DNA from: an uncultured bacterium
GTDB lineage: Bacteria; Vulcanimicrobiota; Xenobia; Xenobiales; Xenobiaceae
Length of the DNA: 36,933 nucleotides
Assembly (NCBI GenBank): GCA_900313515.1
Contig: OMRK01000132.1
Location: 1 to 36,933, forward strand
Direction of reading: 5' to 3'
The first letter of the stretch is position 1, and every line of letters starts with the position of its first letter. Positions 20,054 to 35,328 of the stretch are shown here, piece by piece. Under the pieces are notes generated by a model. The model did no database searches. It had not been told where the DNA came from and saw nothing but the letters and a program-made list of their open reading frames with translations. The translations under genes and the position numbers were made by a program.

Positions 20054-22441
20054 CTAAAGTGGACTGGCCAACTCAGCCTCATCGCTAGGTACCGGCAGAA
20101 CCTGTTTAGGATCGCTATGGAAACGCACCCACAATTTGTTGCTAGCAATGAAACGCACTTCACCTAGCCCATACTTAGAATGTTTTATAGTGCAACCGGG
20201 AGGAAACTTGCTGGCTATGGCTTTGCGCCTGAAGCGGCGCTCACTACTGAACTTGATCTCCGGCTTTTCCCTGGAAGAATCTCCACTACTTGACGAACTA
20301 GCTCCCAAGCCTCCCGACATGGCACCGTTATAAAGAGCGCCTCTACCCACCAGCTCTACTACGCCCTTCCGACTAACAAATTCGCTTAACTGCTCTTCAA
20401 CTTCCCTACGTGCCCCTCTAAAGCCCTTGCCAGAACGCAACTCGGCAATGAAGGTTTCAGAACGCGGATGCCCATCACTCTTAACATCCATACATTCAAT
20501 AGGCATCTCATAAACAAAGCGCGACAACTCCGATTCCTGCCCATATCTACGGCCGGAAGCCGAGGCGGTAATATAGAGCATATCTTTGGCACGAGTTAAG
20601 CCCACATAGCAGAGCCGCCGCTCCTCTTCTATGTTTTGCTCACTATCCAAAGAGCGGTGATGAGGCAGCAGCCCATCTTCGAGGCCCACCAAAAACACAA
20701 CGGGGAACTCCAAACCCTTGGAAGTATGGATAGTCATGAGCACCAGGCGATCGCTGCCATTTTCATCTTCTTCAAGCTCATCCTGGGTGGAAATTAGGGA
20801 AACCTCATTTAAAAAGGCTCGCAAAGGCGGATCACCTCCACTACTCTCCGTAACGTGATGATGCGCATCGAAAGTTCGCAAAATTTCCAAAAGTTCGTTG
20901 ATATTGTCCAGGCGATCCTTATCCTCTTCCTGCTCACTATTTAAAAGACGTTCCTTGTAACCGGTATCTTCCAAAACGCAATTGGCTAGATCGTAAAGCG
21001 AACAATCAAAGTTCTGGGCATATTCACTGCGGGCAACTAACCACTCGTAAAGCTTATGACAACGACCAGCTATCCCCTTACCTATCCCCGCCTGCTCAGC
21101 CAGAGCCAAAGCGTGCATAATAGGCACTTGAGAGCGAGCGGAAAAATCGATGATTTTGTTAAAGGTGCCCTCCCCAATACCGGGAGTGTTGGTAATAATG
21201 CGCCCCAGGGCCACTGAATCGCTTGGATTATTGAAAACGTAAAGATAAGCTAGGATATCGCGGACTTCCTTGCGATCGTAAAAGCGACGACCACCCACTA
21301 TCTCGTAACTTATGCCCTCCTCGCGCAAAAGTACTTCTTCGAAGCTGCGACTTTGGAAGTTAGCCCGATAGAGGATGGCTATATCGGAGTATCGGTAACC
21401 GCACTGATTGACTAAGGCCTTGCAGACCTGCACCACACAGCGGGCCTCGCAGGTTTGATCCCGGGTTACGTAAAGGCAGGGCTTGTTGTTGCCCTCCACT
21501 CGATCACTCCAGAGCTTCTTATCCTTGCGGTCGGAATTGTTGCTAACCACAGCGTTAGCTACATCCAGAATCTGCTGGGTGGAGCGGTAATTTCGTTCCA
21601 ACTTCACCACCACAGCCTCGGGAAAATCTTCTTCAAAACGCAGAATTATAGAGATATCCGCACCGCGAAAGCCGTAAATGCTCTGATCATCGTCGCCAAC
21701 GGCGCAGAAGTTGTGATGTTCGCCCAGAATGAGTCGGAGCAACTCATACTGGATGGGATTCACATCCTGGAACTCATCGACCAAAATATAATGGAGCCGA
21801 CTGCGGTATTTCTCACAGACCTCGGGATTTTTTAGAAAAAGCTCCACCGTATAGACCAAAATGTCATCAAAATCTAAGGAATCGTTGGCCCGCAAACGCT
21901 CATTATAAGCCTTGTAGATAGGAATTAGAAAACGTTCCTGCTTGAGAAGTTGGCTCAAATCGTCTGGACCGAGGCGCTTATTCTTGTAACGGCTGATCTG
22001 AGCCAGAAGATCGCGGGGCTTAAATTTTTCGCTATCCACATTTTGATCGCGCAGAATTTCCCGCATCAGGGCTATCTGGGATTCGGTATCGTAGATGGAA
22101 AAGCTTGAAGTTACATCCAGGTACTTGGCTTCGCGGCGCAGCCAACGGGCGCAGACGGCATGGAAGGTACCTACATTAGGAAAATAACCTTCACCGCAAA
22201 GTCCCTCTATACGCTCGGTCATTTCCCGAGCGGCCTTGTTAGTGAAAGTTACCGCCAAAATTTGGGAACGCTGAGCCAGACCGGATTCCAAAATCCAGGC
22301 AATGCGCTTGGTTAGAACGGTGGTCTTACCGCTGCCGGCACCGGCCAAAATAAGCAAAGGCCCCTCAGTGGTGGTGACAGCCTCCTCCTGCTGTGGATTT
22401 AACCCATCCAAAATGGCAGCCCCAGAGACGGAACTCAGCAT
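20054..22441 (-). CDS. SF1A ATP-dependent DNA helicase, PcrA/UvrD family
   Basis: Q motif LNPQQEEAV, Walker A AGAGSGKTT, motif II VDEFQD, and later helicase motifs (TIHTSKGLEF, YVGLTRA). C-terminal Tudor-like IKHSKYGLGEV. The ORF opens at TTG 22447, but ATG 22441 has GAGG 7 nt upstream and is preferred. Confidence 0.9.
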   Translation of the reverse strand: MLSSVSGAAILDGLNPQQEEAVTTTEGPLLILAGAGSGKTTVLTKRIAWILESGLAQRSQILAVTFTNKAAREMTERIEGLCGEGYFPNVGTFHAVCARWLRREAKYLDVTSSFSIYDTESQIALMREILRDQNVDSEKFKPRDLLAQISRYKNKRLGPDDLSQLLKQERFLIPIYKAYNERLRANDSLDFDDILVYTVELFLKNPEVCEKYRSRLHYILVDEFQDVNPIQYELLRLILGEHHNFCAVGDDDQSIYGFRGADISIILRFEEDFPEAVVVKLERNYRSTQQILDVANAVVSNNSDRKDKKLWSDRVEGNNKPCLYVTRDQTCEARCVVQVCKALVNQCGYRYSDIAILYRANFQSRSFEEVLLREEGISYEIVGGRRFYDRKEVRDILAYLYVFNNPSDSVALGRIITNTPGIGEGTFNKIIDFSARSQVPIMHALALAEQAGIGKGIAGRCHKLYEWLVARSEYAQNFDCSLYDLANCVLEDTGYKERLLNSEQEEDKDRLDNINELLEILRTFDAHHHVTESSGGDPPLRAFLNEVSLISTQDELEEDENGSDRLVLMTIHTSKGLEFPVVFLVGLEDGLLPHHRSLDSEQNIEEERRLCYVGLTRAKDMLYITASASGRRYGQESELSRFVYEMPIECMDVKSDGHPRSETFIAELRSGKGFRGARREVEEQLSEFVSRKGVVELVGRGALYNGAMSGGLGASSSSSGDSSREKPEIKFSSERRFRRKAIASKFPPGCTIKHSKYGLGEVRFIASNKLWVRFHSDPKQVLPVPSDEAELASPL

Positions 22442-22450
22442 CTTCAAACC

Positions 22451-25294
22451 TCACTTCAGCCTTACACTGTAGCCAAAACGATCTCGGAGAACGTTGAGCA
22501 CAGCCGGAAGAAAAACTGCCGAGCTCAGCAAATTGCAGCCGACTCCCACGGTCATAACCAACCCCAGAGAGGCCACGCCCTGGTGCTGAGCCGATATCAT
22601 AGAAGCGAAGCCAATCATGGTAGTAAGGGCCGACAAAGTTATGGATGGACCGGTGGAGTGGCTAAAAATGCCCGTCTCCCCTTCTTCGGCTACGCGGTTA
22701 ATAATATGGAGACCAAAGACCAGGCCTATTCCTAAAATTAAGGGCAGAGCCAAGAAATTGGCGCTGTTAAAGTTCACCCCTAAATAGCCCATCACCCCTG
22801 CCATCCACACTATACCAATAACCTTAGGCATAAGGGCTAAAAGGGCCACGCCAATTTTGCGAAAATGCACGAAAAGCAGAATCCAGACGGCAATCAAGGC
22901 CCACATACCGGCCTTTTCATTGGAGACGCGCAATTCCTGACAGTCGTAATAACTCATAACCGGCATGCCCACCACATCGGGATCGACACTCTGCATATCT
23001 TTAACAAAGCGCTCTTGGGCTGGGCGTTCCCAAACATTACCTTTGGGGAAAATGCGGATCTGGATAGCCCCATTCCGACCTATTTCACGGTTGCGCAGTC
23101 CGTCGGGAAGATCTTTAATATCCAAAGGCGGAGCCTCGACCTGCATATGCAGGAGATTTATCACCTCGCCCAGGCTTTTGTAGAAATGATCTTCAAAGGC
23201 AGTCAGACCGTTCTCTATGGCCCCTGGTCCCATATTGGACATTGTCTTAAACAACTTATCGAGCTTTAGAGAGATCCTTTGGGCAGATTTTCTGACGTTA
23301 GGATCTTGGCTCTTAGAGAGCTTACCTAAGACGTCGTCGATCATATTCTGATCCTGGCCAATACTGTCTCCAAGACTCCTGAACATGGCGATGCGGCTGA
23401 CCTCGTTATCACGCACTATCCCTTTAGGAACGGGGATATCTGAGGCAACCCCGACAATGCGTTTTAAATAAGCAGCTTTGTCACCATAACGGCTAGGGAT
23501 AATCATGGCGACACTATCAACACTGGCCACAGTGGGCAATTTGGAGAACTCTTCCACCCTTCTGCCGGCCTCGGGTATATCTTTAGCCAGAGAAATACCG
23601 CAAAGCAAAGAGTGATCGCTGGATTTGATCAAATGCATCTCTGTGTTTACGGACTGCAGGCCTTTGGCTTGCAGGTTCAACAGGTTATAGTCGTAATGAA
23701 CCCTGGTACTGTAAACAACAGACACTACTGTGAGCACTATTCCTGCAGTCACAACCAAGCCAGAACGAGCCAACAGCCATTTCTCAATACTAGCCAGAAA
23801 AGCAAATTGACCGATAGCTTTGGCCTCGTGGGCAGCTTTGCCATTTAGAGGATCTTCGGCTTTACTGTAAGGCATGAAGAGAAGTGAGGGCAGCACAAAC
23901 ATCATAGCCAAATAGCAGAGAATGATGCCGCTTCCGGCGATAAGCCCCAATTCGGCTATGCCGGTAAAATCGGTGAAAATAAGCACCAGGAAAGCCAGAG
24001 CCGTGCTCATTGCACCAGTGAAATTTTCATAACCGGCCCCACACAGAACAGCCTTGCCCGCCTCCAAGACATTACCATTACGCACACACTCTTCATCGTA
24101 ACGGTAAAGGGCATGGATACCGAAATCGATACCTAGCCCCATGAGAATGGTGGCGCAGGTAACAGTAAGCAGATTCAAATGACCGATAACCAACGTGGTA
24201 AAACCCATCGTCCAGCCAACCCCAATTACCAAGGTCACAACAGCTTTCAAGGGCTTAACAACCTCACGGAAGGCCCAAATGAAAACGGCAGCAATCAAGA
24301 CTAGAGATAAAATTGCCGAACGTATGGAATCGTTAGTGGAAGCTTCGGCCTCGTCAACATTTAGGACCAGTTCACCAGTAAGACCAACGATAACATCTCT
24401 GTGAGAAAGCTCAAGTTTAGCTAATATCTCCCGGAGGCGAGTCACTGCACGAGTGACGGAAACATCAGCGCTCTCGCCCGCCCGGTAGGTTGGACGGCAT
24501 AGAAGAGTATAAAAACGGCCCTGGCCTACGGTGTTGTACTGTACCATAGATTCATGAGACATAACATCGGTTATCGACTCATCGGCGTCTTCGGCCTGAT
24601 CGAAATTACCGATCAAAGCCTCAGTCCAAGGGGAAACATAGGAGAAGCGCCCTCTGGTCTCCATGCTCAAAATGAACATGTCTAAAAAGCTCTCTACGGT
24701 AGGTAGAGCTGAACCAATGTTGTCAATATCAGGCTCTTGGACTTGCTTCTTCCCGTCTTTCTTGGTAGAGCTGCTTTTCATCACCAGCTTCGGCATCTTT
24801 TGCATAAGATCAATAAGGCCACGAGATCCCGCAAAGGTGATAAGATAACTCTTATAACTTTCCAAATCACCGGCAATGTCACGCAGCTGTTCCGGCTGCA
24901 GATAGTGGAGCGCGTAGCGTCTCAGAAAAGTAACATCGACCTTTTCAAATACATCACTGAAAGTCTCCGGCTCACTGCGCAAAATTTGAGCCAACTCATC
25001 AACAAAGGCCTGGCGCTGGCGGGCCGTGCCATCTTCAACTATAACCACCATATCCTCGGCCTTGGGGAATTCGCGGTTATAACGTTCCTGCCCAGCTTGA
25101 ACTGCAGCCGCACGCTTAATAAGGTTAGCCTGATCGGCATCAAACTTGAGATATTTAGCCGTGTAGAGCAGACTAATTAAACACGTAATCACACTTACAA
25201 GCACAATCAAGCGCGGATGGTGGAAATCGAATTCGGCTATCCTGCTAAAAAGGCTTATGATGTACGATGGAGCGGGAGAATCTTTTGCGGCCAT
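22451..25294 (-). CDS. MMPL/RND-superfamily exporter (HpnN-like architecture)
   Basis: 947 aa. Two clusters of about 5-6 TM helices each follow a large soluble loop and an N-terminal TM. The N-terminal block DMVVIVEDGTARQRQAFVDELAQILRSEPETFSDVFEKVDVTFLRRYALHYL resembles HpnN-type lipid exporters (from memory). It is separated by 3 nt from the genes on both sides. Confidence 0.8.
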   Translation of the reverse strand: MAAKDSPAPSYIISLFSRIAEFDFHHPRLIVLVSVITCLISLLYTAKYLKFDADQANLIKRAAAVQAGQERYNREFPKAEDMVVIVEDGTARQRQAFVDELAQILRSEPETFSDVFEKVDVTFLRRYALHYLQPEQLRDIAGDLESYKSYLITFAGSRGLIDLMQKMPKLVMKSSSTKKDGKKQVQEPDIDNIGSALPTVESFLDMFILSMETRGRFSYVSPWTEALIGNFDQAEDADESITDVMSHESMVQYNTVGQGRFYTLLCRPTYRAGESADVSVTRAVTRLREILAKLELSHRDVIVGLTGELVLNVDEAEASTNDSIRSAILSLVLIAAVFIWAFREVVKPLKAVVTLVIGVGWTMGFTTLVIGHLNLLTVTCATILMGLGIDFGIHALYRYDEECVRNGNVLEAGKAVLCGAGYENFTGAMSTALAFLVLIFTDFTGIAELGLIAGSGIILCYLAMMFVLPSLLFMPYSKAEDPLNGKAAHEAKAIGQFAFLASIEKWLLARSGLVVTAGIVLTVVSVVYSTRVHYDYNLLNLQAKGLQSVNTEMHLIKSSDHSLLCGISLAKDIPEAGRRVEEFSKLPTVASVDSVAMIIPSRYGDKAAYLKRIVGVASDIPVPKGIVRDNEVSRIAMFRSLGDSIGQDQNMIDDVLGKLSKSQDPNVRKSAQRISLKLDKLFKTMSNMGPGAIENGLTAFEDHFYKSLGEVINLLHMQVEAPPLDIKDLPDGLRNREIGRNGAIQIRIFPKGNVWERPAQERFVKDMQSVDPDVVGMPVMSYYDCQELRVSNEKAGMWALIAVWILLFVHFRKIGVALLALMPKVIGIVWMAGVMGYLGVNFNSANFLALPLILGIGLVFGLHIINRVAEEGETGIFSHSTGPSITLSALTTMIGFASMISAQHQGVASLGLVMTVGVGCNLLSSAVFLPAVLNVLRDRFGYSVRLK

Positions 25295-25297
25295 AAC

Positions 25298-26575
25298 TTA
25301 CAAATTATCCAACCAGTGGCTACTTTCCAGAACAGCTCCCCACGAACGCATATTGCTCATGTTGAACAGATGTTTAGCGCACAAGGACCAGCGGTTAAAG
25401 CAAGCAGCATGCACTGCATCGGCCAATGAAACGGCGCAAGCTTGCATTACGCTGGCGTCGCGGTAGCAATCGATCATACATTCGGTGCAACCATCGCGGA
25501 TAATCTGGCTACCATTAAATTCAAAGACATGGCACATGGGGCGGCGCCAATTGCAACAACGCCACAGTTGCAGATTCCAATCCAAGTAGAACTGTTTAAA
25601 ACCGCCCAAACATGGGAACTCCTGGGGCTTTTTATCTAGGAAGCGGTGCATGTCTTCCAAAGAGGCGCTGGGATTGAGAACCGCATAAGATTTTTTCAAA
25701 TCCATCACATCGTCTATAAGCTTATGCATCTCCTCCGGCGTATAGCTGACCAAATCGGAATCTTTATACCCCAAATAATTGGAATCCAGCTTGACAAGTG
25801 GAAAGGAAAAGGTAACAGCCTGAAAGCCCAAACTCTTCAAGGTTTGCGGAAGCAACGTCAGATCGCCCAAAATTTTGCTCAAAGTAACGGAAGCAACTCG
25901 ACCTACCCCATTGTCGGCAAAAATCTTATTGGCCTCTACAATTCGCTGAGTAACTCCAGGCAAACCGCGATTATTTTCGCTTACTTGCGGATCCACAGAA
26001 TCAATGGAGATAATAATCTCTCTAAGCCCGCTCTCGATAAGCCCCTCAACCTTTTCAGGAGAAAGAGTGGAACCGTTAGTGACAACTAGACTTTCCATAC
26101 CTAGTTCTTGGGCATGCTGCATAAATTTCTCAAGATATGGGTTTATAGTCGGCTCGCCGCCCGTGAAAATCAAAAAGCGCACGCCGTTACGGTACAGACA
26201 ATCGATGGCATTTAAACCGGGCGAAAGCTGAACCAGGGTTTTTGGAGAGACAGGTGGCTTAGTAGAAGGATTAGAAGTGGGCGTAACCTGGCTAACAGCC
26301 TGCTCACAGGCAGGAGCTGCTGTCGGTAAAGATTCACAAGTCGAGCTTGGAAAAGCCTTAGCAAGGCCTAAAGGCCCAGAGGAGCTTGAAACGGCATCAG
26401 CGGAGGAGTTCAAACCAACAGGGCCAAAATTCTGAACGGAGTCAGCTTTAGGGCTATGTTCACGGGAGAAACTGCAAAAACCGCACTTGGCGTTGCAGGC
26501 ATTGGTAATGGCGAACTGGCAGGTAGAAGGGCCGCCATCTAAAAAAACCTGTCCCAAAATTTCTTTCCAATTCAT
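25298..26575 (-). CDS. Radical SAM enzyme with a Cys-rich C-terminal auxiliary domain and a large low-complexity insertion
   Basis: CNAKCGFC (C27/C31/C34, CxxxCxxC). The GGEP motif is at 139-142. C-terminal pattern C-x17-CC-x6-C-x14-C-x2-C-x3-C. GGAGG lies 8 nt upstream of ATG 26575. Confidence 0.85.
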   Translation of the reverse strand: MNWKEILGQVFLDGGPSTCQFAITNACNAKCGFCSFSREHSPKADSVQNFGPVGLNSSADAVSSSSGPLGLAKAFPSSTCESLPTAAPACEQAVSQVTPTSNPSTKPPVSPKTLVQLSPGLNAIDCLYRNGVRFLIFTGGEPTINPYLEKFMQHAQELGMESLVVTNGSTLSPEKVEGLIESGLREIIISIDSVDPQVSENNRGLPGVTQRIVEANKIFADNGVGRVASVTLSKILGDLTLLPQTLKSLGFQAVTFSFPLVKLDSNYLGYKDSDLVSYTPEEMHKLIDDVMDLKKSYAVLNPSASLEDMHRFLDKKPQEFPCLGGFKQFYLDWNLQLWRCCNWRRPMCHVFEFNGSQIIRDGCTECMIDCYRDASVMQACAVSLADAVHAACFNRWSLCAKHLFNMSNMRSWGAVLESSHWLDNL

Positions 26576-26867
26576 ATTTCAATTCCTCCAACCATTTCCA
26601 AACACTTAAGCAAAAAACAAAACCTGCCTAAACCTAAAGCACCTCAAAGTGCTAGCCTCACCCTCCCCCTATTTTTCGACTGAACTGCAGTCCAAATTTT
26701 CTAGGCGTCCTTCCAGCAACTTATAGCGTTCAAATCCAAATGTAACGTGTGGTTCTCGCCGCTGTGTCCCCGCTTCCAATAACTCGCAAAAATCAAACTC
26801 GAACCACTCCAGAAGCAGAGCCATTCAGAAACTTCTTAAAACTCTTGTTCAAAAGCAACAACCACCT

Positions 26868-27236
26868 TCAGGAAGCAACCACTACAGCCACTCCCAAGAA
26901 TATAACCACCGTTCCCAGCCATCTCAAGGGCGAAACATGCTCATTTAGATAAACCTTGGCTAAGAAAGCATTAACCACGTAATCCAGTGCAGTCATGGGC
27001 AAAAGCAGTGAAAGATCGGCCATTGAGAGCATAATCATCCACAAAATAAAGGAACAAATTAGAAGTCCCGTTCCTACCATAACCCAGCCACTGCTAACAA
27101 CACAGACTAATGTTTTGACCAAATCCCTCCAGCTATGAAGGGACACATCCACAGAGCGCATCCCTTTGGAGACAAAGATATTGCCCCAGGCTGTAACAAA
27201 AACTCCCGTGAGTATCAGAATCACTAACTTTAGCAT
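26868..27236 (-). CDS. Small single-EamA-domain (DMT-superfamily, ArnE/ArnF-sized) membrane protein
   Basis: 122 aa with four predicted TM helices. The C-terminal LNEHVSPLRWLGTVVIFLGVAVV is typical of an EamA repeat end. The family call is from general resemblance only. Confidence 0.65.
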   Translation of the reverse strand: MLKLVILILTGVFVTAWGNIFVSKGMRSVDVSLHSWRDLVKTLVCVVSSGWVMVGTGLLICSFILWMIMLSMADLSLLLPMTALDYVVNAFLAKVYLNEHVSPLRWLGTVVIFLGVAVVVAS

Positions 27237-27389
27237 GCTATGTTTCCATCCAAATCAGCCCCCGCCTCTTCGCTTTCCATAAGTTCTGCCCTCTATAATG
27301 ACTTTCAAGCAGGCATTTACCACTTTTTTAAAGAATTCACATGGAAATAGGAAAACTCGAAGAGTGTTTTGTAAAGGAATGGTGTTTTT

Positions 27390-28640
27390 ATGCGCCGGTT
27401 GATGATGCTTTTGTTTACTGCAATGTTGGGGCTGTTGCTGGGGCTTCTTCCATGCGGCCATATTGACGGCGTCAAAGCAGCGGGAGCGGGCTCTCCAGTG
27501 TTGCTATTGCAGTCGGAGATTGGTGGAAAACTAGTAATTGCCAACGCTGTGATTGTTAAAAAAGAAGCAGAGAACAGCTTGGCTCTCACCAGCTACGAAG
27601 CCATCAAGGGAGCAGCCAGAATAACCGCTCTAGTGCATGGTAGCCGCTCTCCGCTTCCGGCTAAGCTGTTAAAATTTGCACCAGAGGCCAATTTAGCTCT
27701 TTTAGAAGTTCCGACTACAGAAGTTTTGCCAGCCAGTCTGGGCGACAGTGAGGTCGTTAAGCTGAAGACTCCGGCTCGAATTGAGTTTGCCGGCCCTATT
27801 ATGAGCGGCGACGTAGCCACCTCTTTTGAGGTTATTAAGCGTTCTGCCAACGTCGATAACATAGCCAATCGCCCAAACGGTTCCGTAATGCGCCTGCTCC
27901 TTGCGCAACCATCCGATGACAACACCAGTGGTGCGCCTGTTTTCCTTCCAAGTACCGGCGAATTAGTGGCTATATCCTTCTCTGCTGATGCCTCAGGAGG
28001 CAATAATAATTATAGGTTTGCCGTACCTACTTCTATGGTGGGAGCCCTCTCCGACAAGCTTAAGGTCTCCGGCGATTCCGTTGCCAATATTCGAGTTTTA
28101 GATGGCAAAGATGCTCCCATTTTAGATGGTGGCGAATCCGGCGCCAATGGTGATGGCGGCGGTCTTTTAGTGCCCATTATCGTAGTTGTTGTGGCAGTAG
28201 TAATATTGGGTGGTACCGCCTACACCCTCTTCTTTAAAGGCAAAGGCAAAAGCAGCAGTGCCGTTGAGCCCTTCTCAGTCATGCCGATTCTGCCAGAGAG
28301 TATGGAGATGGCCTTCATTACCTCTGAAGGTGTGCTTCTGCCCATGGATAAAGATCCCATCACGATAGGCCGTTCCGATACCAATGATTGGTGCTTTACC
28401 GAGTCTAGCGTCTCCGGTCGTCACGCCCGCATTCGCAAAGCTCGTAGCGGTTCGGGGTACGAAGTTGAAGATTTGAGTAGCACCAATGGAACCTTTGTGA
28501 GAGGCCGCCAGGTGGGAAGAAGCGAGATCATTAATCCTGGTGACGTTGTAAAATTCGGTCGCAAGATCGAGGTTAAACTTGTTAGCAGAGCAGAGACCTT
28601 GCTGAGAAATTCGAAAAAGACAGCGGTGGCTCCAGAGTAA
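27390..28640 (+). CDS. Membrane protein: signal peptide, trypsin-fold domain with a degenerate catalytic triad, TM helix, cytoplasmic FHA domain
   Basis: N-terminal MRRLMMLLFTAMLGLLLGLL. The Trypsin_2-like blocks are LALTSYEAIKG, EANLALLEV and DNTSGAPVF..GELVAISF. TM segment LLVPIIVVVVAVVILGGTAYTLFF. The FHA signature is ITIGRSDTNDWCF..SVSGRHARI......YEVEDLSSTNGTFVRGRQV...PGDVVKFG. Confidence 0.8.
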   Translation: MRRLMMLLFTAMLGLLLGLLPCGHIDGVKAAGAGSPVLLLQSEIGGKLVIANAVIVKKEAENSLALTSYEAIKGAARITALVHGSRSPLPAKLLKFAPEANLALLEVPTTEVLPASLGDSEVVKLKTPARIEFAGPIMSGDVATSFEVIKRSANVDNIANRPNGSVMRLLLAQPSDDNTSGAPVFLPSTGELVAISFSADASGGNNNYRFAVPTSMVGALSDKLKVSGDSVANIRVLDGKDAPILDGGESGANGDGGGLLVPIIVVVVAVVILGGTAYTLFFKGKGKSSSAVEPFSVMPILPESMEMAFITSEGVLLPMDKDPITIGRSDTNDWCFTESSVSGRHARIRKARSGSGYEVEDLSSTNGTFVRGRQVGRSEIINPGDVVKFGRKIEVKLVSRAETLLRNSKKTAVAPE

Positions 28641-28789
28641 TCTGAAGTCTAGTTTGTGAATAGTTTTGCAGACTGGCTCGAGCCGAAGGCCCGCCGATCT
28701 GAGGGGGGGATCGAGCTTAATAAGGACAGGTTTACGCAAAAAAGCATAGCACTGTCAAAAAAAACTAGGACGGGGAGCATTTTTAGGAT

Positions 28790-30028
28790 ATGAGTACGCC
28801 TTTTACCTGTTATGATGTTTTCTTGGCCGTGGCAGGACGCCAAAAGCCCATAAGCAGAGAAGCCTTAATAAAGGCTATGTGGATCGAAGATACCGATTTG
28901 GCTACACTTGACAGTGTTTTAGGAGATTTGCTCAAGCAGCACCTTTTGGATGGCGATGCCTCAGGGTACGTGAAGGGCTCTCATTCCAAGGCTTCCGACC
29001 TTTTGGAACTACTTCTTGTGGCCGTAGGATACGAGTTCAACTATAACTTGTACCTTTCGGAGGACATGCAAAACTTTCTGCAATCGGTCTATAAGTTGGA
29101 GAGTTTTTCCGATAGCGAACTGGATTCTTTACCCCAAAAGCGTGAATTTTTGCACAACATGATCAAGGATCGGCTTATTCTGTTTATTAGCTATGAGCCG
29201 TTAGTTATGCGCCTTCCCCACGTTCTTTTTTTTGACTTGATTTGCTCCTACTTCGGCATCAAGCCGCGTACCAAATTTTTTGATAGGAAACTGAATTTAG
29301 ATCGAATTATAAGCGATAAGCTCAGTACTATAGAAGCCAAAGAAATGCTTCCATTTTCCATGGGCTCACGTTATATTTTTGCTTCCGGTAGCAGTACCAT
29401 CGAACGTAGTATCCCTAAAATGCAAAGGCTTATAACCTACGATATTGTCCCCGAGCAGGGAGAAGTTTTCGATCAAGTTACCAAAGAAAATTTTGCCAAA
29501 GCTAAGCAGTTGGTCGAACGCAATTCGGTCCTTCTCAAGCGTAGTCTCAGTATAGAAATAATCCATCAATATCACTCTGTGGCTTTGGCTCTGAACGCAA
29601 AGGAAGATGGATACCGCACCTTCGAGGTGGAGATTCGCTCGAATCCATATTTCAAAACTGCTCAAGCCAAGCGCATCCCGGAACTCATAGATAAATTACT
29701 GGCAGATTATAGGAAAGCTATTTCGACCTCAGCCGGATTATTGTCTATAATCGCTGCCGCTTCCTATTTCTACAATGGATTTATTCATATTCACCCTTTT
29801 GAAGACGGTAACAGTCGAACGGCCTTCTTGGCTATGTTGCACATCTTCAACCTTTTTGGCGTAGATTTTGATGTTCCCGAATGTTTCGATTACAGCTTCA
29901 TTAAGGTAACTAAAGGACAGAGAAAGCGCAATGACAACGAATTGCAGGAACTGCTCAAAGAAATCTACATATCGACGCTCAATAAGAAAGAACTGGAGCT
30001 CATGACCAATTTAGCCAAGAAGCTTTAA
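28790..30028 (+). CDS. Fic/Doc-fold protein with a non-canonical active-site motif
   Basis: HPFEDGNSRTAF at residues 335-346 (29792-29827), preceded by the typical AASYFYNGFIHIHPF context. The N-terminal 60 aa or so (ISREALIKAM...LGDLLKQHLLDGDASGYV) look winged-helix-like (weak). The gene is about 40% GC by hand count. Confidence 0.85.
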   Translation: MSTPFTCYDVFLAVAGRQKPISREALIKAMWIEDTDLATLDSVLGDLLKQHLLDGDASGYVKGSHSKASDLLELLLVAVGYEFNYNLYLSEDMQNFLQSVYKLESFSDSELDSLPQKREFLHNMIKDRLILFISYEPLVMRLPHVLFFDLICSYFGIKPRTKFFDRKLNLDRIISDKLSTIEAKEMLPFSMGSRYIFASGSSTIERSIPKMQRLITYDIVPEQGEVFDQVTKENFAKAKQLVERNSVLLKRSLSIEIIHQYHSVALALNAKEDGYRTFEVEIRSNPYFKTAQAKRIPELIDKLLADYRKAISTSAGLLSIIAAASYFYNGFIHIHPFEDGNSRTAFLAMLHIFNLFGVDFDVPECFDYSFIKVTKGQRKRNDNELQELLKEIYISTLNKKELELMTNLAKKL

Positions 30029-30034
30029 GTAGTT

Positions 30035-30931
30035 ATGACTACTTTGGTAGCTAACGATATTATAGACCAGCGCTACCAAGTGATCCGACCGCTGGGTGAG
30101 GGAGCTCAAAGTTGCGTTTATCTGGTTAGCGATTTTGCCCGTCCCCTGGCCAGGTGGGCTCTTAAACAGTTGCGCTTAAGCGAGCTTCCCCAAAGCGAGC
30201 AGAAACCAGCTTTAGCCATGTTTGCCCGTGAAGCGGACATACTTCGCAGGCTCCACCATCAGGCTCTGCCCAAGCTCATTGATTATGCAGAGCCTGCCAA
30301 TGAGAATCCTTATATTGTCATGGAACGCGTGTCCGGACATCCCTTAGATGAGGTCCTCGACCGCCGTTCTACCCCCCTGCGACTAGAAGAAGCCCTGCCT
30401 ATCGCACTGCAACTTACCCATTTGCTGTGCACGTTGCACAGTCAAAATCCGCCTATCATCTACAGAGATTTAAAGCCATCTAACCTGATACTGGCTGACA
30501 GTGGCATGGTGCGGTTAATCGATTTCGGCATCGCCCGTTTTCGCAGTGATCGCTCTGCCAAAGACACACAAGAACTAGGCACTCCCGGTTACTCCGCCCC
30601 AGAGCAATACCGGGGCAATTCCAGTCCACGCAGCGATATATACTCACTGGGGGTTACCCTATACTACATGCTGACTTTCAAAGATCCGCAGGACCAGAAC
30701 TTTAATTTTCCACCTCTAGAAGACGTGATCGATGTTCCCAAGGAATTGAGCGATATAGTGGCTAGATGCCTGGAGGTGGATGCCGAAAAGCGTCCCACCT
30801 CCGCTCTGGACGTGCAAAAACAGTTGTTGCGTGTACTCGATAGTTGTGAAAATAGAAAAAGCCATCAGACTCAGCCACTTGAGCCCGGCTTGCTTCATTT
30901 AAGCAAACACCTAGCCATGCTAAACAGCTAA
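30035..30931 (+). CDS. Hanks-type Ser/Thr protein kinase, kinase domain only
   Basis: Gly-rich loop LGEGAQSCVY, the lysine in WALKQL, catalytic loop YRDLKPSNLIL (Y143 at 30461 replaces the usual H), DFGIA, and GTPGYSAPE. No TM or sensor domain. It starts 6 nt after the Fic stop. Confidence 0.9.
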   Translation: MTTLVANDIIDQRYQVIRPLGEGAQSCVYLVSDFARPLARWALKQLRLSELPQSEQKPALAMFAREADILRRLHHQALPKLIDYAEPANENPYIVMERVSGHPLDEVLDRRSTPLRLEEALPIALQLTHLLCTLHSQNPPIIYRDLKPSNLILADSGMVRLIDFGIARFRSDRSAKDTQELGTPGYSAPEQYRGNSSPRSDIYSLGVTLYYMLTFKDPQDQNFNFPPLEDVIDVPKELSDIVARCLEVDAEKRPTSALDVQKQLLRVLDSCENRKSHQTQPLEPGLLHLSKHLAMLNS

Positions 30932-31097: not shown

Positions 31098-31146
31098 GAA
31101 AAATGCTAAAAAATAATCGGGCTGAACAAACTAAAGAAAAAGCCCG
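31098..31146 (-). terminator. Candidate intrinsic terminator overlapping the 3' end of the FtsB-like gene
   Basis: On the minus strand, the stem CGGGCT/AGCCCG (31141-31146 / 31118-31123) has a 17-nt loop and is followed by ATTATTTTTTAGCATTTTT. The TAG stop lies inside the U-tract. Confidence 0.45.
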
Positions 31147-31606
31147 AAGGACGGTGCCCCTTCTTGCAAGTTCCAGCGACAACACCACTGCCGGCTGGCT
31201 TTGCAGGCATGCTAGGAGCGCCATCAACTATATAGGCGACCTCACCTTTGGCCACCATGCCCAGCTTTTCTCTGGCAACATCCTTGACACCTTCGGGCCG
31301 CTGCAATCTGGCCTGCTTTTTCTCCAGGACCGTAATTTCCGTCCTAACCTGAGCGACATCACGCTCACACTGTTCCAGCTCTGCTAGCTTATCTCTATAC
31401 TCCTGACGTTGTTCACCCAGTATGCTTACAAAGTAATATACCCCCGCCGCCAGCAAAAAAGCCAGGACACACCCCAAAACACTGTTACGGAACAAAGCCG
31501 ATCTAAAGAAACGCCTGATCTTATTGAACACCCCTGCAAACCCTAGCCCTTCCGCAGCCAACTCATCAAGCAAACCTCTACAAAAAAAAAGGCCGCAGCC
31601 CGCCAC
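31106..31606 (-). CDS. FtsB/DivIC-family septum formation initiator-like protein
   Basis: TM helix VLGCVLAFLLAAGVYYFVSIL, a coiled coil (YRDKLAELEQCERDVAQVRTEITVLEKKQARL), and the family signature VKDVAREKLGMVAKGEVAYIV. The true start is probably downstream of GTG 31606, for example GTG 31531 (VFNKIRRFF...) preceded by GGAAGGG. The first 25 codons include a T9 run on the coding strand. Confidence 0.75.
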   Translation of the reverse strand: MAGCGLFFCRGLLDELAAEGLGFAGVFNKIRRFFRSALFRNSVLGCVLAFLLAAGVYYFVSILGEQRQEYRDKLAELEQCERDVAQVRTEITVLEKKQARLQRPEGVKDVAREKLGMVAKGEVAYIVDGAPSMPAKPAGSGVVAGTCKKGHRPSGFFFSLFSPIIF

Positions 31607-32591: not shown

Positions 32592-34457
32592 ATGAGTAAT
32601 ACGGGCGCAGCCTCCAGAAAAACTCCCCATAAAGGTCTACAAACGCTTCTTGTCGGTTTGCTGCTCTATGTATCAATAACCTTGTATAAATCCGGGCTTT
32701 GGCTAATTATTTACGATGGAGGAACTGCTAGAAACAGCCTAAGTGAAGTGATAGCCATAATGCGGTGCCTGTTTGCTTCTAGACCACTTATTGCAGCCTT
32801 CGAAGTCGCCGCCTGCGCCTACTTCGCCCATTGTTTTCTCAGGGAAACATTCAAGTGGCCTGCTCATTTGACAGCTTTCCTCGTCTCGGCAGGCTCCATA
32901 TTGGGGCAAGCTTACGCAACCCATGAAGCCCTCCGCGTTCGCCAAATGGATTGGCTAATTTTGGCTATTTTAGCAGTAATATTAGCTGGACTCTATTTGA
33001 TGACGCGTTGCCTTATATCTGTTGCCCAAGAACTGGGCATTTATCTTTCCAAAATTCAAATACCCACAACCAATTTGGCTTCAATAATACAAAAGTTTGA
33101 AAGACACCCATTCATCTGTAGTTGGATAACCATTTTCACCAGTTGGATGCCTACAGCCTTTATAAAATACCCTGGAGGCTTAGGGTACGACGCTTATTTT
33201 CAAATAGAGGAATATTTTGGCTTTGCTCCTCTAGCCCACAAATACTGGCCGGTTGCTTCCAGCGTATTTATGGGCGCTATGGTTGATTTAGGCCACAAAT
33301 TATTCGGTTCATTAGATGCCGGATTATTCTGCTTGACCTTGGTTCAGGCGGCAGCCTGCTCCGCCATATTGGCCTACAGTTTGTCGGCGGGAAAAGAGTT
33401 ACAGATTCCCAGACGCTGGCGCTGCTTCATGCTATTTTTGTACTCTATAGCCCCCATATATTATTCGCAATGCACCTCTATAATTAAGGACATGATTTAC
33501 ACCTGCCTGGTGGTCTTGCTGATAGTGCTTCTAGCCAGGAATTTGTTTAAAGATCACTTTAGCATGATCGACTACGGCTGCTTAACGTTCACCTCATTTC
33601 TAGTGTGCATATTTCGCAGCAACGGTATAAGCATCATTCTGTTGGGCCTACTGGTTCTGTTGATCCACAATTTATTCAGCACACCCAAGCGCTGGCCGCT
33701 TTGCTGGGCTTTAATGGGAGCAACCGGACTCTTTTGCGCTTATTCTTGGTTTATTTCTCATGCTATAGATTTACCCAAGGATGGAATCAAGGAAGGGCTG
33801 TCTTTGCCATTTCAACAGACAGCTCACTACGTCAAGGAATACGGTCATGAAGTTACAGCCCAGGAAAGGGAAGCAATAAACGCTGTGTTGGATTATGAGG
33901 CGTTGCCTAGCATTTATGACTGTCTTCTAAGTGATAACGTCAAGGCCACCTATCGCGGTGACTCCAACAAACTGCCCGCTTATTTCAAAATATGGATCGC
34001 TCAGTTCTTGAGGCACCCAGCCGCATATCTGGAATCTCCAGTAGCCAATACCGGCGGTTTCTTTTACGTAGATGCAGAATCTATGTGGACTTGTAGCGAT
34101 CCCGGCAATTGGAATAAGTTGATTTACACATATGAGCCTTCCGTTTTTTTTGTGCGGCTGAAGGCTCTATGTTTAAACGCCACCGAATGCCTGGCCAGGA
34201 TGCCGCTCTTCAACCTAATTAACAGTGTGGCTACATCCATTTTTATAACTTTAGGACTAGCCTTAGAGTGCCTGCGCCAAAAAAATTGGAAAATGCTTTT
34301 CCTCTTGCTGCCTTCAATCATGGGAATTTTGACCTGTGTGGCTTCGCCAACTTTCTACAACGGTGGGATCCGCTATGCCTTCCCCATCGTTTACGCCCTG
34401 CCATTTCTTTGGGGGCTGTACCTCAAAGAAAAATTACAACGCTCTGTAGTAAGCTAG
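32592..34457 (+). CDS. Large polytopic membrane protein (paralog 1), possibly a DUF6020-like / GT-C-like family member
   Basis: 621 aa with many TM helices. Conserved loop KYPGGLGYDAYFQIEEYFGFAPLAHKYWPVASSVFMGAMVDLG. About 60% identical to the 35329.. ORF over a stretch of about 130 aa that I aligned by eye (81/133). The family name is from memory only. Confidence 0.8.
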   Translation: MSNTGAASRKTPHKGLQTLLVGLLLYVSITLYKSGLWLIIYDGGTARNSLSEVIAIMRCLFASRPLIAAFEVAACAYFAHCFLRETFKWPAHLTAFLVSAGSILGQAYATHEALRVRQMDWLILAILAVILAGLYLMTRCLISVAQELGIYLSKIQIPTTNLASIIQKFERHPFICSWITIFTSWMPTAFIKYPGGLGYDAYFQIEEYFGFAPLAHKYWPVASSVFMGAMVDLGHKLFGSLDAGLFCLTLVQAAACSAILAYSLSAGKELQIPRRWRCFMLFLYSIAPIYYSQCTSIIKDMIYTCLVVLLIVLLARNLFKDHFSMIDYGCLTFTSFLVCIFRSNGISIILLGLLVLLIHNLFSTPKRWPLCWALMGATGLFCAYSWFISHAIDLPKDGIKEGLSLPFQQTAHYVKEYGHEVTAQEREAINAVLDYEALPSIYDCLLSDNVKATYRGDSNKLPAYFKIWIAQFLRHPAAYLESPVANTGGFFYVDAESMWTCSDPGNWNKLIYTYEPSVFFVRLKALCLNATECLARMPLFNLINSVATSIFITLGLALECLRQKNWKMLFLLLPSIMGILTCVASPTFYNGGIRYAFPIVYALPFLWGLYLKEKLQRSVVS

Positions 34458-35249: not shown

Positions 35250-35328
35250 ATTCGTAAAAGTTGAAGCTACAGTTTTAAAATATTCCGATTTATAAAATAA
35301 GGCTGCTTAACAGCTACCGAAGGAAAAA

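What the first reader, a model, noticed from the sequence alone, without database searches (positions are those of the whole stretch)
27390..30931. FHA adaptor / atypical Fic / minimal Ser-Thr kinase three-gene module: top candidate for an undescribed signalling or defence system
Three co-directional genes sit between a divergent promoter region (27237-27389) and a convergent gene (31106). Gene 1 tethers an extracytoplasmic trypsin-fold domain with a degenerate triad, which looks like a sensor rather than an enzyme, through one TM helix to a cytoplasmic FHA domain (a phosphothreonine reader). Gene 2 is a Fic-fold enzyme with a non-canonical active site. Gene 3 is a kinase-domain-only Hanks kinase that starts 6 nt after the Fic stop. 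The module therefore holds a pThr writer, a membrane-tethered pThr reader and a second nucleotide-dependent protein modifier. The window contains no PP2C phosphatase. Standalone Fic proteins and Ser/Thr kinases have each been reported as anti-phage genes, but I know of no described system with this three-part architecture.
Basis: partly seen in the sequence, partly recalled or inferred. Interest (0 to 1): 0.7.

Follow-up and report, generated by a model that had tools for sequence, protein, structure and literature searches.

The report
FHA sensor–kinase pair with optional Fic
The three genes are real, but comparison with related uncultured gut and fermenter bacteria shows that the conserved unit is a membrane sensor with a phosphothreonine-reading domain plus a small soluble kinase, while the Fic gene between them is optional and decaying, and nothing points to phage defence.

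Summary
Gene 1 (27390-28640) encodes a signal peptide, an HtrA-fold ectodomain with a dead catalytic triad (His->Glu70, Asp->Asn101), one TM helix and an intact FHA domain. Gene 2 (28790-30028) encodes two winged-helix units plus a Fic fold with the motif HPFEDGNSRTAF. Gene 3 (30035-30931) encodes an intact 298-aa Hanks kinase that starts 6 nt after the Fic stop.

The locus is chromosomal and vertically inherited within one family, Xenobiaceae (Vulcanimicrobiota/Eremiobacterota). In 11 distinct loci the FHA sensor and the kinase are always present, next to a divergent EamA / HpnN-like MMPL / UvrD block. The Fic gene lies between them in only 8 of 11. In two of those eight its catalytic His is Gln. 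Fic is also the fastest-diverging of the three proteins and has a stand-alone paralogue elsewhere in the same genome.

The best reading is a lineage-specific split receptor Ser/Thr kinase, in which a pseudo-protease sensor docks a soluble kinase through FHA-pThr binding. The Fic-fold protein is a facultative accessory of uncertain activity.

Four results argue against defence. No PADLOC or NCBIfam defence model is met. The genes sit in a stable housekeeping context. Their GC3 matches the host. No family member occurs in viral contigs.

Verdict: new variant of a known kind, moderate interest.

The parts
27237..27389 (.). Divergent intergenic region between the EamA-like gene (-) and gene 1 (+); presumed promoters
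   Evidence: ORF map and sequence. The divergent EamA <> gene 1 arrangement is conserved in most surveyed loci: L003, L093, L095, L096, L097, L098, L099, L101. No strong sigma-70-like site was found on the + strand.
27390..28640 (+). Gene 1: membrane-anchored pseudo-HtrA sensor with a cytoplasmic FHA domain (416 aa)
27492..28133 (+). Gene 1 ectodomain (aa 35-248): HtrA/DegP (S1C) fold with a dead triad (Glu70 for His, Asn101 for Asp)
   Evidence: Trypsin_2 at 28 bits. Alignments to DegQ 6z05 and MucD 8k2y. Family conservation. Foldseek match to DegQ at E 3e-10, and also to the RsgI9 S1C sensor 7sjy.
28152..28235 (+). Gene 1 single TM helix (aa about 255-282) followed by a basic KGKGK stretch (cytoplasmic side)
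   Evidence: Hydropathy; AF2 helix 262-282.
28308..28586 (+). Gene 1 FHA domain (aa about 307-399) with pThr-binding residues G327, R328, S342, H345 and N366-G367-T368
   Evidence: Pfam FHA at E 5e-18; invariant columns in the 22-sequence family alignment.
28641..28789 (+). 149-nt gene 1-gene 2 spacer. It has a 12-bp hairpin just after the stop codon with no U-tract, and no antitoxin-like small ORF
   Evidence: Orthologous spacers range from a 4-nt overlap to 96 nt.
28790..30028 (+). Gene 2: protein with two winged-helix units and a Fic fold (412 aa)
28808..29212 (+). Gene 2 N-terminal half: two H-H-H-strand-strand (winged-helix-like) units, aa 7-62 and 85-141
   Evidence: Secondary structure of the AF2 model, pLDDT above 90 in this region. 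The region is conserved in archaeal full-length relatives. The fold assignment was made by eye and not by a domain-level fold search.
29792..29827 (+). Fic active-site motif H335-PFEDGNSRTA-F346. The second Gly is Ser across the whole family. The last Arg is Phe only in the window's clade
30035..30931 (+). Gene 3: soluble Hanks-type Ser/Thr kinase with a kinase domain only (298 aa), starting 6 nt after the gene 2 stop
30521..30604 (+). Kinase activation segment from DFG163 to APE190, with invariant KDTQELGTPG (T178-x-x-L181)
   Evidence: Alignment of 6 orthologues.
30869..30910 (+). Kinase C-terminal tail motif T279-x-x-L282...L286..L289..H292. It is invariant within an otherwise variable tail and is a candidate pT-x-x-L docking site for the FHA domain (inference)
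20054..27236 (-). Conserved upstream context: UvrD (20054-22447), HpnN/BstA-like MMPL transporter (22451-25294), radical SAM (25298-26575), half-size EamA/ArnE-like (26868-27236)
   Evidence: Pfam and NCBIfam scans. The same block lies upstream of gene 1 orthologues in the other loci.

Best explanation
This is a lineage-specific, chromosomally fixed transmembrane Ser/Thr-phosphorylation module of Xenobiaceae (Vulcanimicrobiota/Eremiobacterota). Its conserved core has two parts.

Gene 1 places a catalytically dead HtrA-fold domain outside the membrane as a ligand or peptide sensor and an intact FHA domain inside. Gene 3 is a sensor-less soluble Hanks kinase.

I infer that the pair works as a split receptor kinase. 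The kinase autophosphorylates a conserved Thr, either the tail T279-x-x-L or the activation-loop T178-x-x-L. The FHA domain of gene 1 binds that pThr and brings the kinase to the membrane sensor. Occupancy of the ectodomain then modulates kinase output.

Gene 2 (two winged-helix units plus a Fic fold) is a facultative third component that was inserted ancestrally between the two core genes. Its family has lost the class II inhibitory glutamate that the archaeal relatives keep. In the window's clade it has also lost the last Arg of the motif. In other lineages it has lost the catalytic His or the whole gene.

In the window the Fic catalytic core (His, Asp/Glu, Asn, Arg) is still present, so it may still transfer a nucleotide-derived group. 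It could act on the pathway (for example on the kinase) or be a phospho-regulated effector. That link is inferred from adjacency and is not demonstrated.

Shown here: the domain identities, the residue states, and the synteny and its exceptions. Inferred: FHA-kinase docking, the sensor role of the ectodomain, and any Fic activity or target.
For: Core pair. Gene 1 and kinase orthologues co-occur in 11 of 11 distinct loci. The downstream flank changes from lineage to lineage: DivIC here, ClpB-like, AsnB, GlnA, a CHASE2 cyclase, an aminotransferase.

Constraint on the core. The kinase catalytic residues, the activation loop and the tail TxxL motif are invariant. The FHA pThr-binding residues are invariant. 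The kinase is the best conserved of the three proteins: 45-68% identity, against 41-58% for gene 1 and 34-54% for Fic.

Sensor role of the ectodomain. It has the HtrA fold with His->Glu and Asp->Asn. A protease-like S1C ectodomain that acts as a binding sensor has a precedent in the anti-sigma factor RsgI9 (Foldseek hit 7sjy; PMC12203970).

FHA-kinase interaction. Adjacent FHA and kinase genes whose products interact through kinase phospho-sites have a precedent in PknQ-MupFHA (PMC4238996).

Fic as an ancestral but dispensable member. Fic is present in both deep branches of the gene 1 tree. The Fic-less loci nest beside Fic-bearing ones. Their gaps are clean, 78-135 nt, with no Fic remnant.

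Decay of the Fic active site. Archaeal relatives carry HPFxDGNSRxxR plus (S/T)xxxE(G/N), and Xenobiaceae members lack the Glu. The window clade has R->F. L093 and L094 have H->Q.

Tight spacing. Fic and the kinase are 6-31 nt apart where adjacent. Gene 1 and Fic overlap by 4 nt in L003 and L095.
Against: All the evidence is comparative and comes from one bacterial family. The upstream flank is conserved too, so gene order alone cannot separate functional coupling from phylogenetic inertia.

No experiment and no complex model links the FHA domain to the kinase. T178 and T279 are candidate sites only. The tail motif could equally be a structural helix.

In the Fic-less loci the gene 1-kinase gaps contain terminator-like hairpins, so the two core genes may not be co-transcribed there. 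The window has a 149-nt gene 1-Fic gap with a hairpin.

A profile search with the ectodomain alone found no fusion of this ectodomain to a kinase, so there is no Rosetta-stone support.

A stand-alone Fic paralogue exists in the same genome as a trio (L013 and L093 are both from MAG JAUNIO01). Fic function in this family therefore does not need the neighbours in cis.
Confidence: 0.5

Rival explanations
1. The Fic gene is a syntenic passenger. It was inserted between the sensor and the kinase in the Xenobiaceae ancestor, is functionally independent of them, and is slowly degenerating. Only the FHA-kinase pair forms a system.
For: Fic is absent from 3 of 11 loci with no scar. The catalytic His is Gln in L093 and L094. 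Fic is the fastest-evolving of the three proteins. A stand-alone paralogue sits in a different, conserved housekeeping context next to yjbQ-rluB-dnaG-rpoD. Archaeal full-length relatives have no FHA or kinase neighbour. Two unrelated genes lie between Fic and the kinase in Xenobium-type loci.
Against: Fic has kept the same slot between the same two genes across lineages that are only 34-37% identical, while the downstream flank turned over repeatedly. Gene 1-Fic overlaps of 4 nt and a Fic-kinase spacing of 6-9 nt suggest translational coupling. Even the H->Q copies keep full-length, otherwise conserved proteins.
Confidence: 0.3
2. Fic is the negative regulator of the kinase and stands in for the missing PP2C phosphatase. 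On this view it NMPylates the invariant activation-loop Thr residues and so blocks their phosphorylation, as the Fic effector XopAC/AvrAC does to plant receptor-like cytoplasmic kinases.
For: The window has no PP2C. The kinase activation loop KDTQELGTPG is invariant. In the window Fic retains His, Asp/Glu, Asn and Arg and lacks an inhibitory Glu, so it is predicted not to be auto-inhibited. Fic and the kinase are 6 nt apart. There is a weak domain-level XopAC hit at E 1e-4. XopAC uridylylation of the kinases BIK1 and PBL1 is described in the abstract of PMC3739749.
Against: This rests purely on analogy. Lineages with no Fic, or with H->Q Fic, keep an unchanged kinase, so the kinase does not depend on this regulation. 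The XopAC score is 20.9 against a cut-off of 450.
Confidence: 0.1
3. This is an anti-phage defence or abortive-infection system. The sensor or kinase detects infection and releases a toxic Fic.
For: PADLOC models for SoFic, PDC-S04, PD-T4-6 and mad6 give hits. Fic shows presence/absence polymorphism. The Fic protein lacks an inhibitory Glu.
Against: The hits are generic domain matches. NCBIfam scores are SoFic 25.9 against a cut-off of 550, MAD6 138 against 460, and PglW 67 against 990. Gene 1 has no PADLOC hit. The locus holds a fixed chromosomal position among housekeeping genes across a whole family and co-diverges with them. GC3 of all three genes tracks the host from 44% to 67% genome GC. 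No family member occurs in viral contigs. An extracytoplasmic sensor is an odd way to detect an intracellular phage. The H->Q variants would be non-toxic.
Confidence: 0.04
4. This is a Fic toxin-antitoxin-like module in which a neighbouring protein supplies the missing inhibitory helix.
For: The Xenobiaceae Fic proteins have lost the intramolecular inhibitory Glu. Class I FicTA systems supply it in trans (PMC3667792, abstract).
Against: No (S/T)xxxE(G/N) motif occurs in gene 1 or gene 3, or in any reading frame of the gene 1-Fic spacer. There is no small upstream ORF. The stand-alone paralogue has no partner either.
Confidence: 0.03

Closest known systems
Actinobacterial FHA-STPK pairs: FhaB/FipA (Rv0019c) and FhaA with PknA/PknB; M. 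ulcerans PknQ-MupFHA
   Same: A Hanks kinase is encoded beside an FHA-domain protein, and the FHA protein can be membrane-anchored. The FHA domain is expected to dock on kinase or substrate pThr. The best NCBIfam hit of the gene 1 FHA domain is FhaB_Rv0019c, E 1.4e-16. PknQ-MupFHA interact through activation-loop phospho-sites (PMC4238996).
   Different: Here the extracytoplasmic sensor sits on the FHA protein and the kinase is soluble and has a kinase domain only. In PknB-type systems the kinase itself is the receptor. There is no PP2C (PstP-like) gene in cis. The FhaB model score of 60.9 is below its cut-off of 125. The phylum is different.
RsgI9-type anti-sigma factor with an S1C protease-like ectodomain (Clostridium thermocellum)
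   Same: It is a single-pass membrane signalling protein whose extracytoplasmic domain has an HtrA/S1C fold and is used as a binding sensor rather than a protease (Foldseek hit 7sjy; PMC12203970).
   Different: The cytoplasmic output of RsgI9 is an anti-sigma domain released by regulated proteolysis. Here the output is an FHA domain. The match is at the level of fold only.
Class II Fic proteins (BT_2513, FICD/HYPE, SoFic) and the 'GNTR, last Arg absent' variant clade of Khater & Mohanty 2015
   Same: The Fic fold and the core His-Phe-(Asp/Glu)-Gly-Asn-x-Arg are shared. The archaeal relatives of this family have the class II N-terminal inhibitory motif at the usual distance, 124-134 aa before the His. 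A variant with Thr in place of the second Gly and no last Arg is already catalogued but uncharacterised (PMC4454073).
   Different: Ser replaces the second Gly throughout the family. The Xenobiaceae members lack the inhibitory Glu. Two N-terminal winged-helix units replace the C-terminal wHTH of SoFic. Some orthologues have Gln in place of the catalytic His. No substrate or activity is known.
T6SS threonine-phosphorylation pathway (PpkA-Fha1/TagH-PppA)
   Same: A Hanks kinase and an FHA protein act together as a post-translational switch tied to an envelope signal. There is a weak TagH FHA hit, TIGR03354 at E 2e-9.
   Different: The window and the related loci contain no T6SS genes. The score of 37.7 is below the cut-off of 120. 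PpkA is itself membrane-bound.

Membership tests
FHA domain (PF00498) | Profile match above the gathering score, plus pThr-binding Arg, Ser, His and Asn | tested here: met
   65.7 bits against a cut-off of 20.7. G327, R328, S342 and H345 are invariant in the family, and N366-G367-T368 is present in the window protein.
Hanks-type Ser/Thr kinase (PF00069) | Catalytic Lys, HRD-type catalytic loop with Asp and Asn, DFG, APE | tested here: met
   137 bits. K44, Y-R-D145-LKPSN150, DFG163 and APE188 are present, and all are invariant in 6 orthologues.
HtrA/DegP S1C serine protease | Chymotrypsin fold | tested here: met
   Trypsin_2 at 28.0 against a cut-off of 27.6. Foldseek match to DegQ, DegP and MucD at E about 1e-9 to 3e-10.
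HtrA/DegP S1C serine protease | His-Asp-Ser catalytic triad | tested here: not met
   Glu70 aligns with the His and Asn101 with the Asp. Both substitutions are fixed in the family, and the Ser position varies among S, T and D.
Fic/Fido (PF02661), AMPylating type | Fic fold | tested here: met
   45.4 bits against a cut-off of 24. Foldseek probability 1.00 to BT_2513 and FICD.
Fic/Fido (PF02661), AMPylating type | Complete motif HxFx(D/E)GNGRxxR | tested here: not met
   The motif is HPFEDGNSRTAF: the second Gly is Ser and the last Arg is Phe. Transferase activity could not be tested.
Class II Fic (auto-inhibited) | N-terminal (S/T)xxxE(G/N) inhibitory helix | tested here: not met
   The window protein has no such motif. 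Archaeal relatives have it, and the aligned Xenobiaceae positions have no conserved Glu. E205 of the window protein falls in that column but is not conserved.
Class I FicTA toxin-antitoxin | Small adjacent antitoxin carrying the inhibitory motif | tested here: not met
   There is no such ORF or motif in the spacer or in genes 1 and 3.
Doc (kinase-type Fido) | HxFx(D/N)(A/G)NKR with Lys in place of the second Gly; TIGR01550 above its cut-off | tested here: not met
   The residue is Ser, not Lys. The score is 24.7 against a cut-off of 38.65.
SoFic anti-phage defence gene (PADLOC PDLC03963 / NF046030) | Full-length equivalog match | tested here: not met
   NCBIfam gives 25.9 against a cut-off of 550. 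The PADLOC hit covers profile positions 61-204 of 361 only.
Defence kinases (PD-T4-6, MADS MAD6, BREX PglW) | Match beyond the generic kinase domain, or the associated system genes | tested here: not met
   MAD6 scores 138 against 460 and PglW 67 against 990. The PADLOC hits cover the kinase domain only. The window has no MADS or BREX partner genes next to the trio.
FhaB/FipA (Rv0019c) | Equivalog score | tested here: not met
   60.9 against a cut-off of 125.
T6SS TagH/Fha | Equivalog score and T6SS context | tested here: not met
   37.7 against a cut-off of 120. No T6SS genes were seen.

The most novel reading that the evidence does not exclude
The trio is a true three-component cassette that couples Hanks-type phosphorylation to Fic-mediated nucleotide-derived modification in a core physiological pathway. 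On this reading, a Fic enzyme that has lost its intramolecular inhibitory glutamate is controlled instead by, or itself controls, a kinase docked on a membrane pseudo-protease sensor through FHA-pThr binding. Such crosstalk between the two modification systems has not been described in bacteria.
Probability: 0.15. Interest if true: 0.7.

Novelty: new variant of a known kind. Interest (0 to 1): 0.42.

Why it matters
If the core inference holds, Xenobiaceae build a receptor Ser/Thr kinase from two polypeptides: a dead-protease sensor carrying an FHA domain, and a bare kinase. That would be a simple, testable example of FHA-mediated receptor assembly, in a phylum that until recently had no cultured members.

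The Fic family found here is rare: about 38 representatives among 1.84 billion clustered proteins. It shows an ordered series of active-site losses: inhibitory Glu, then last Arg, then catalytic His, then the whole gene. That makes it a useful natural experiment on how Fic enzymes turn into pseudoenzymes or are discarded.

The result also removes this locus from the list of defence-system candidates.

Tried and rejected
(1) Defence membership was rejected. PADLOC, NCBIfam and PHROG scans gave domain-level hits only.

It returned mostly generic Fic cores and only one bacterial family member. It did reveal archaeal full-length relatives and the same-genome paralogue.

(3) The metagenome scan with the gene 1 profile gave only four further family loci. 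The other hits were generic FHA domains.

(4) The Rosetta-stone test was negative. A profile search with the ectodomain alone found only true HtrA/DegQ proteases outside the family and no kinase fusion.

(5) I considered whether the N-terminal T6-x-x-D9 of Fic is a pTxxD ligand for the FHA domain, and rejected it. The motif is equally conserved in the stand-alone paralogue and in archaeal relatives that have no FHA neighbour. It also sits at the N-cap of helix 1.

(6) A search for Ser/Thr positions specific to the trio-linked Fic clade gave nothing convincing.

(7) The low GC of the Fic gene (42.5%) is not a sign of horizontal transfer. It comes from codon positions 1-2, and GC3 equals that of the neighbours.

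(8) E222 in VPE[NQ] might be the inhibitory Glu, since the paralogues literally read SVIPEN. This stays unresolved. HMMER and BLAST alignments to FICD and to a Bacteroidales class II Fic place the canonical helix 17-25 residues upstream.

(9) The two genes inserted between Fic and the kinase in Xenobium-type loci are a Gly-zipper protein and a 480-aa Zn-ribbon protein. Neither is a phosphatase.

(10) The promoter and terminator scan of the locus was uninformative: counts were near shuffle expectation (terminator-like sites 10 found against 6.1 ± 2.4 expected) and no site lay in the gene 1-Fic gap on the + strand.

Full report
OBSERVATION

All are on the + strand. They follow a 153-nt divergent gap shared with an EamA-like gene and precede a convergent gene at 31106-31606, which is a DivIC/FtsB homologue.

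Pfam confirms FHA (E 5e-18) and, marginally, Trypsin_2 (28.0 bits, cut-off 27.6) in gene 1. It confirms Fic (E 1.5e-11) in gene 2 and Pkinase (E 7.5e-40) in gene 3.

Gene 1 has an N-terminal signal-like helix and one TM segment (aa about 255-282) followed by KGKGK. An AlphaFold2 model built on 22 homologues (pLDDT 83) gives a beta-barrel ectodomain, a TM helix and an FHA sandwich. By Foldseek the ectodomain matches DegQ, DegP and MucD at E down to 3e-10.

Sequence alignments to DegQ and MucD put Glu70 on the catalytic His, Asn101 on the Asp and a Ser on the Ser. In the family alignment Glu70 is nearly invariant and Asn101 invariant, and the nucleophile position is S, T or D. The 'degenerate triad' reading is therefore correct, and the degeneracy is a fixed family trait.

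The FHA phosphothreonine-binding residues (G327, R328, S342, H345, N366-G367-T368) are intact. The kinase has K44, YRDLKPSN, DFG and APE and no TM segment. Its ATG lies 6 nt after the Fic stop. None of the 22 ORFs of at least 120 aa is a PP2C phosphatase. The partial ORFs at the window ends read as polytopic membrane proteins; they were inspected by eye and not Pfam-scanned.

THE FIC PROTEIN

The AF2 model (pLDDT 90.6) shows two N-terminal helix-helix-helix-hairpin units (aa 7-62 and 85-141), which I read as winged helices, followed by a Fic core (aa about 210-411). The best structural matches are BT_2513 (3cuc) and FICD.

The motif is HPFEDGNSRTAF. Against HxFx(D/E)GNGRxxR, the second Gly is Ser and the last Arg is Phe. 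The Ser is invariant across the whole family. The Arg-to-Phe change is confined to the window's clade.

The family is small. There are 29 proteins among 5.8 billion in the word-indexed search. An exhaustive HMMER pass over 1.84 billion sequences found 38 representatives at E <= 1e-30.

About twenty of those representatives resemble the full-length relatives that the genome-contig scan found only in DPANN and Methanomicrobia MAGs. They read HPFxDGNSRxxR and carry a canonical class II inhibitory motif (S/T)xxxE(G/N) 124-134 residues upstream of the His. The bacterial members mostly lack that motif.

Aligning the window protein to the archaeal relatives puts the inhibitory Glu column on a variable loop. 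The window has E205 there, but close relatives have K, H, N or G. An independent BLAST alignment to a Bacteroidales class II Fic puts it on Phe197. Either way there is no conserved inhibitory glutamate.

A variant with Thr for the second Gly and no last Arg is already catalogued, uncharacterised, by Khater & Mohanty (PMC4454073). The active-site variation is therefore unusual but not unprecedented.

WHERE IT OCCURS

Source names attached to homologues are Candidatus Bruticola and Candidatus Xenobium. Both belong to Xenobiaceae, class Xenobia, phylum Vulcanimicrobiota (= Eremiobacterota). Samples include human (Hadza) gut and biogas fermenters.

I collected 11 distinct loci that carry a gene 1 orthologue: the window, L001/L002, L003/L004, L093, L094, L095, L096, L097, L098, L099 and L101. 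I checked them with phmmer on six-frame ORFs.

In every locus gene 1 is followed, co-directionally, by an orthologous kinase with 45-68% identity to the window's. Wherever the upstream side is on the contig and called, gene 1 is transcribed divergently from EamA, sometimes a radical SAM gene, an HpnN/BstA-like MMPL transporter and UvrD. The downstream flank differs in almost every lineage: DivIC here, a 306-aa protein plus a small FHA protein plus a ClpB-like protein in L001, two asparagine synthases in L003, GlnA in L093 and L094, a CHASE2 cyclase in L095, and an aminotransferase plus GroEL in L096.

THE FIC GENE IS FACULTATIVE

Fic lies between gene 1 and the kinase in 8 of the 11 loci.
- It is directly adjacent to both in the window, L001, L098, L093 and L094.
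- A Gly-zipper gene and a 480-aa Zn-ribbon gene lie between it and the kinase in L003, L101 and L095.
- In L096, L097 and L099, gene 1 is followed after 78-135 nt by the kinase, and a family-profile search of those loci finds no Fic.

L099 belongs to the same close clade as L001 and L098 (55% gene 1 identity to the window), which have Fic. A neighbour-joining tree of gene 1 places the Fic-less L096 and L097 lineages beside Fic-bearing ones, and the deep sister group is entirely Fic-bearing. The parsimonious reading is an ancestral Fic with two or three independent losses.

In L093 and L094 the Fic catalytic His is Gln (IQPFEDGNSRLSM, IQPYEDGNSRMSM) and the last Arg is Met. Further representatives show the same change. 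The kinases and FHA domains of those same loci keep every catalytic or binding residue.

Fic is also the fastest-diverging of the three proteins: 34-54% identity, against 41-58% for gene 1 and 45-68% for the kinase.

A second Fic clade, about 32% identical, stands alone, divergent from yjbQ-rluB-dnaG-rpoD, with no FHA or kinase nearby. One MAG (JAUNIO01) carries both a trio (L093) and this paralogue (L013).

NOT A MOBILE OR DEFENCE LOCUS

PADLOC hits are generic. Gene 1 has none. Fic hits SoFic over 144 of 361 profile positions. The kinase hits every PD-T4-6 and mad6 kinase model. The NCBIfam equivalogs are far below cut-off: SoFic 25.9 against 550, MAD6 138 against 460, PglW 67 against 990. 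PHROG hits are domain-level.

No family member occurs in IMG/VR contigs; only Fic-core fragments match. The Fic gene's lower GC (42.5%) comes from codon positions 1 and 2, and its GC3 (0.487) equals that of its neighbours. In orthologous loci from 44% to 67% GC, all three genes follow the host GC3.

No small antitoxin-like ORF and no inhibitory motif exists in the gene 1-Fic spacer or in genes 1 and 3.

MECHANISM

What is shown is a strictly conserved pair: a membrane protein with a dead HtrA-fold ectodomain and an intact cytoplasmic FHA domain, and a sensor-less, catalytically intact Hanks kinase.

What I infer is a split receptor kinase. The kinase alignment has two invariant Thr-x-x-Leu motifs. 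One is in the activation loop (KDT178QEL181GTPG). The other is in an otherwise variable C-terminal tail (T279-x-x-L282...L286..L289..H292). pT-x-x-(I/L/V) is a common FHA ligand class (established knowledge). FHA binding to kinase activation-loop phospho-sites has been reported for the neighbouring pair PknQ-MupFHA (PMC4238996).

A protease-like S1C ectodomain used as a binding sensor has a precedent in the anti-sigma factor RsgI9 (Foldseek hit 7sjy; PMC12203970). What the sensor detects is unknown. The invariant neighbourhood with an HpnN-like lipid exporter and an ArnE-like half transporter hints at the envelope, but that could be inherited gene order.

For Fic, the window copy keeps His335, Asp/Glu, Asn and Arg343. 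It lacks both partners of the inhibitory Glu-Arg pair. It could therefore be an un-inhibited transferase with altered nucleotide handling.

The losses and the H->Q orthologues show that catalysis, and the gene itself, are dispensable to the module. I put about 0.45 on Fic being functionally tied to the pair. That includes about 0.1 for the attractive idea that it modifies the kinase activation loop as XopAC does with plant kinases. I put about 0.3 on it being a passenger.

COMPARISON WITH KNOWN SYSTEMS AND NOVELTY

The core works like actinobacterial FHA-STPK pairs (FhaA/FhaB with PknA/PknB, and PknQ-MupFHA). It is not a member of any curated family: FhaB_Rv0019c scores 60.9 against 125 and TagH 37.7 against 120. 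It also differs in putting the sensor on the FHA protein, in having a bare kinase, and in lacking a PP2C in cis.

A full-text search found no paper that treats Fic and FHA domains together. The combination is therefore a new variant of known signalling parts. It is restricted, as far as these searches reach, to one family of an under-studied phylum.

LIMITS

All inference is comparative. Operon structure is unresolved. The window's 149-nt gene 1-Fic spacer folds into a hairpin without a U-tract (z = -2.0). The Fic-less loci have terminator-like hairpins between gene 1 and the kinase.

Noticed in passing
L093 9130-10380; L094 2937-4187: Fic orthologues inside intact FHA-Fic-kinase trios have Gln in place of the catalytic His (IQPFEDGNSRLSM, IQPYEDGNSRMSM), yet remain full-length and otherwise conserved. 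They are likely pseudoenzymes. Several 50%-identity cluster representatives (P0090-P0093, P0098) show the same change.
   Followed up: partly
L014-L018 (DPANN and Methanomicrobia MAGs), match at about 10001-11250 in each: Full-length relatives (23-27% identity) of the winged-helix + Fic protein occur in Nanoarchaeota, Micrarchaeota and a Methanomicrobia MAG. They carry HPFxDGNSRxxR plus a canonical (S/T)xxxEGN inhibitory motif and have no FHA or kinase neighbour. This raises the question of inter-domain transfer of this rare Fic family.
   Followed up: partly
window 29453-29455 (Glu222 of gene 2): Glu222, in the motif VPE[NQ], is invariant in all Xenobiaceae Fic proteins. The paralogues read SVIPEN there, which is a literal (S/T)xxxE(G/N). 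The archaeal relatives, which keep the canonical inhibitory Glu, have no Glu at this position. It may be a relocated regulatory Glu. This could not be tested without model coordinates.
   Followed up: partly
L096 5435-5512; L097 9261-9395: In the Fic-less loci the short gene 1-kinase spacers contain GC-rich hairpins followed by T-runs, which look like intrinsic terminators. Sensor and kinase may therefore be separate transcripts there.
   Followed up: no
L093 10415-11398, L094 4352-5233, L003 9407-10402, L095 12675-13583: Kinase orthologues outside the window's clade carry an extra Trp-rich C-terminal tail (WRFWxxWxxRTF), possibly a membrane-binding amphipathic segment. The tail is absent from the window and from L001.
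   Followed up: no
L005-L013 (for example L009 6001-7251): The stand-alone Fic paralogue is always divergent from yjbQ-rluB-dnaG-rpoD, which is a conserved housekeeping position.
   Followed up: partly
L001 9237-9515 (-): A 92-aa stand-alone FHA protein, next to a ClpB-like AAA+ gene, lies just downstream of the trio in the Bruticola-like locus. It is not present in the window.
   Followed up: no
window 15182-17443 (+): A 753-aa MmeI-family protein has helicase-spacer, methyltransferase, TRD and C-terminal domains but no hit to an N-terminal nuclease domain. It may be a methylase-only or truncated type IIL enzyme, and lies 10 kb from the trio.
   Followed up: no
window 22451-27236 (-): An HpnN/BstA-like MMPL transporter (TIGR03480 at 524 bits, below its cut-off of 752), a radical SAM protein and a half-size EamA/ArnE-like protein form a block conserved next to gene 1 in most surveyed loci. 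The radical SAM protein is about 65 residues longer than its L001/L097 orthologues, with a Ser/Pro-rich stretch after its Cys cluster. The block suggests lipid export.
   Followed up: partly
window 32592-34457 (+), 35311-36933 (+), 3-1001 (-): There are two tandem DUF6020-type polytopic membrane proteins, the second running off the window end, plus another large membrane protein at the left edge. They are possibly glycosyl or lipid transferases.
   Followed up: no
window 5079-9077 (-): A 1332-aa protein has only a weak AAA_22 hit and no NCBIfam family.
   Followed up: no
window 12746-15124 (+): D-lysine 5,6-aminomutase alpha and beta subunits (Lys-AminoMut_A at E 3e-247, plus OAM_dimer and B12-binding domains), indicating lysine fermentation capacity.
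   Followed up: no
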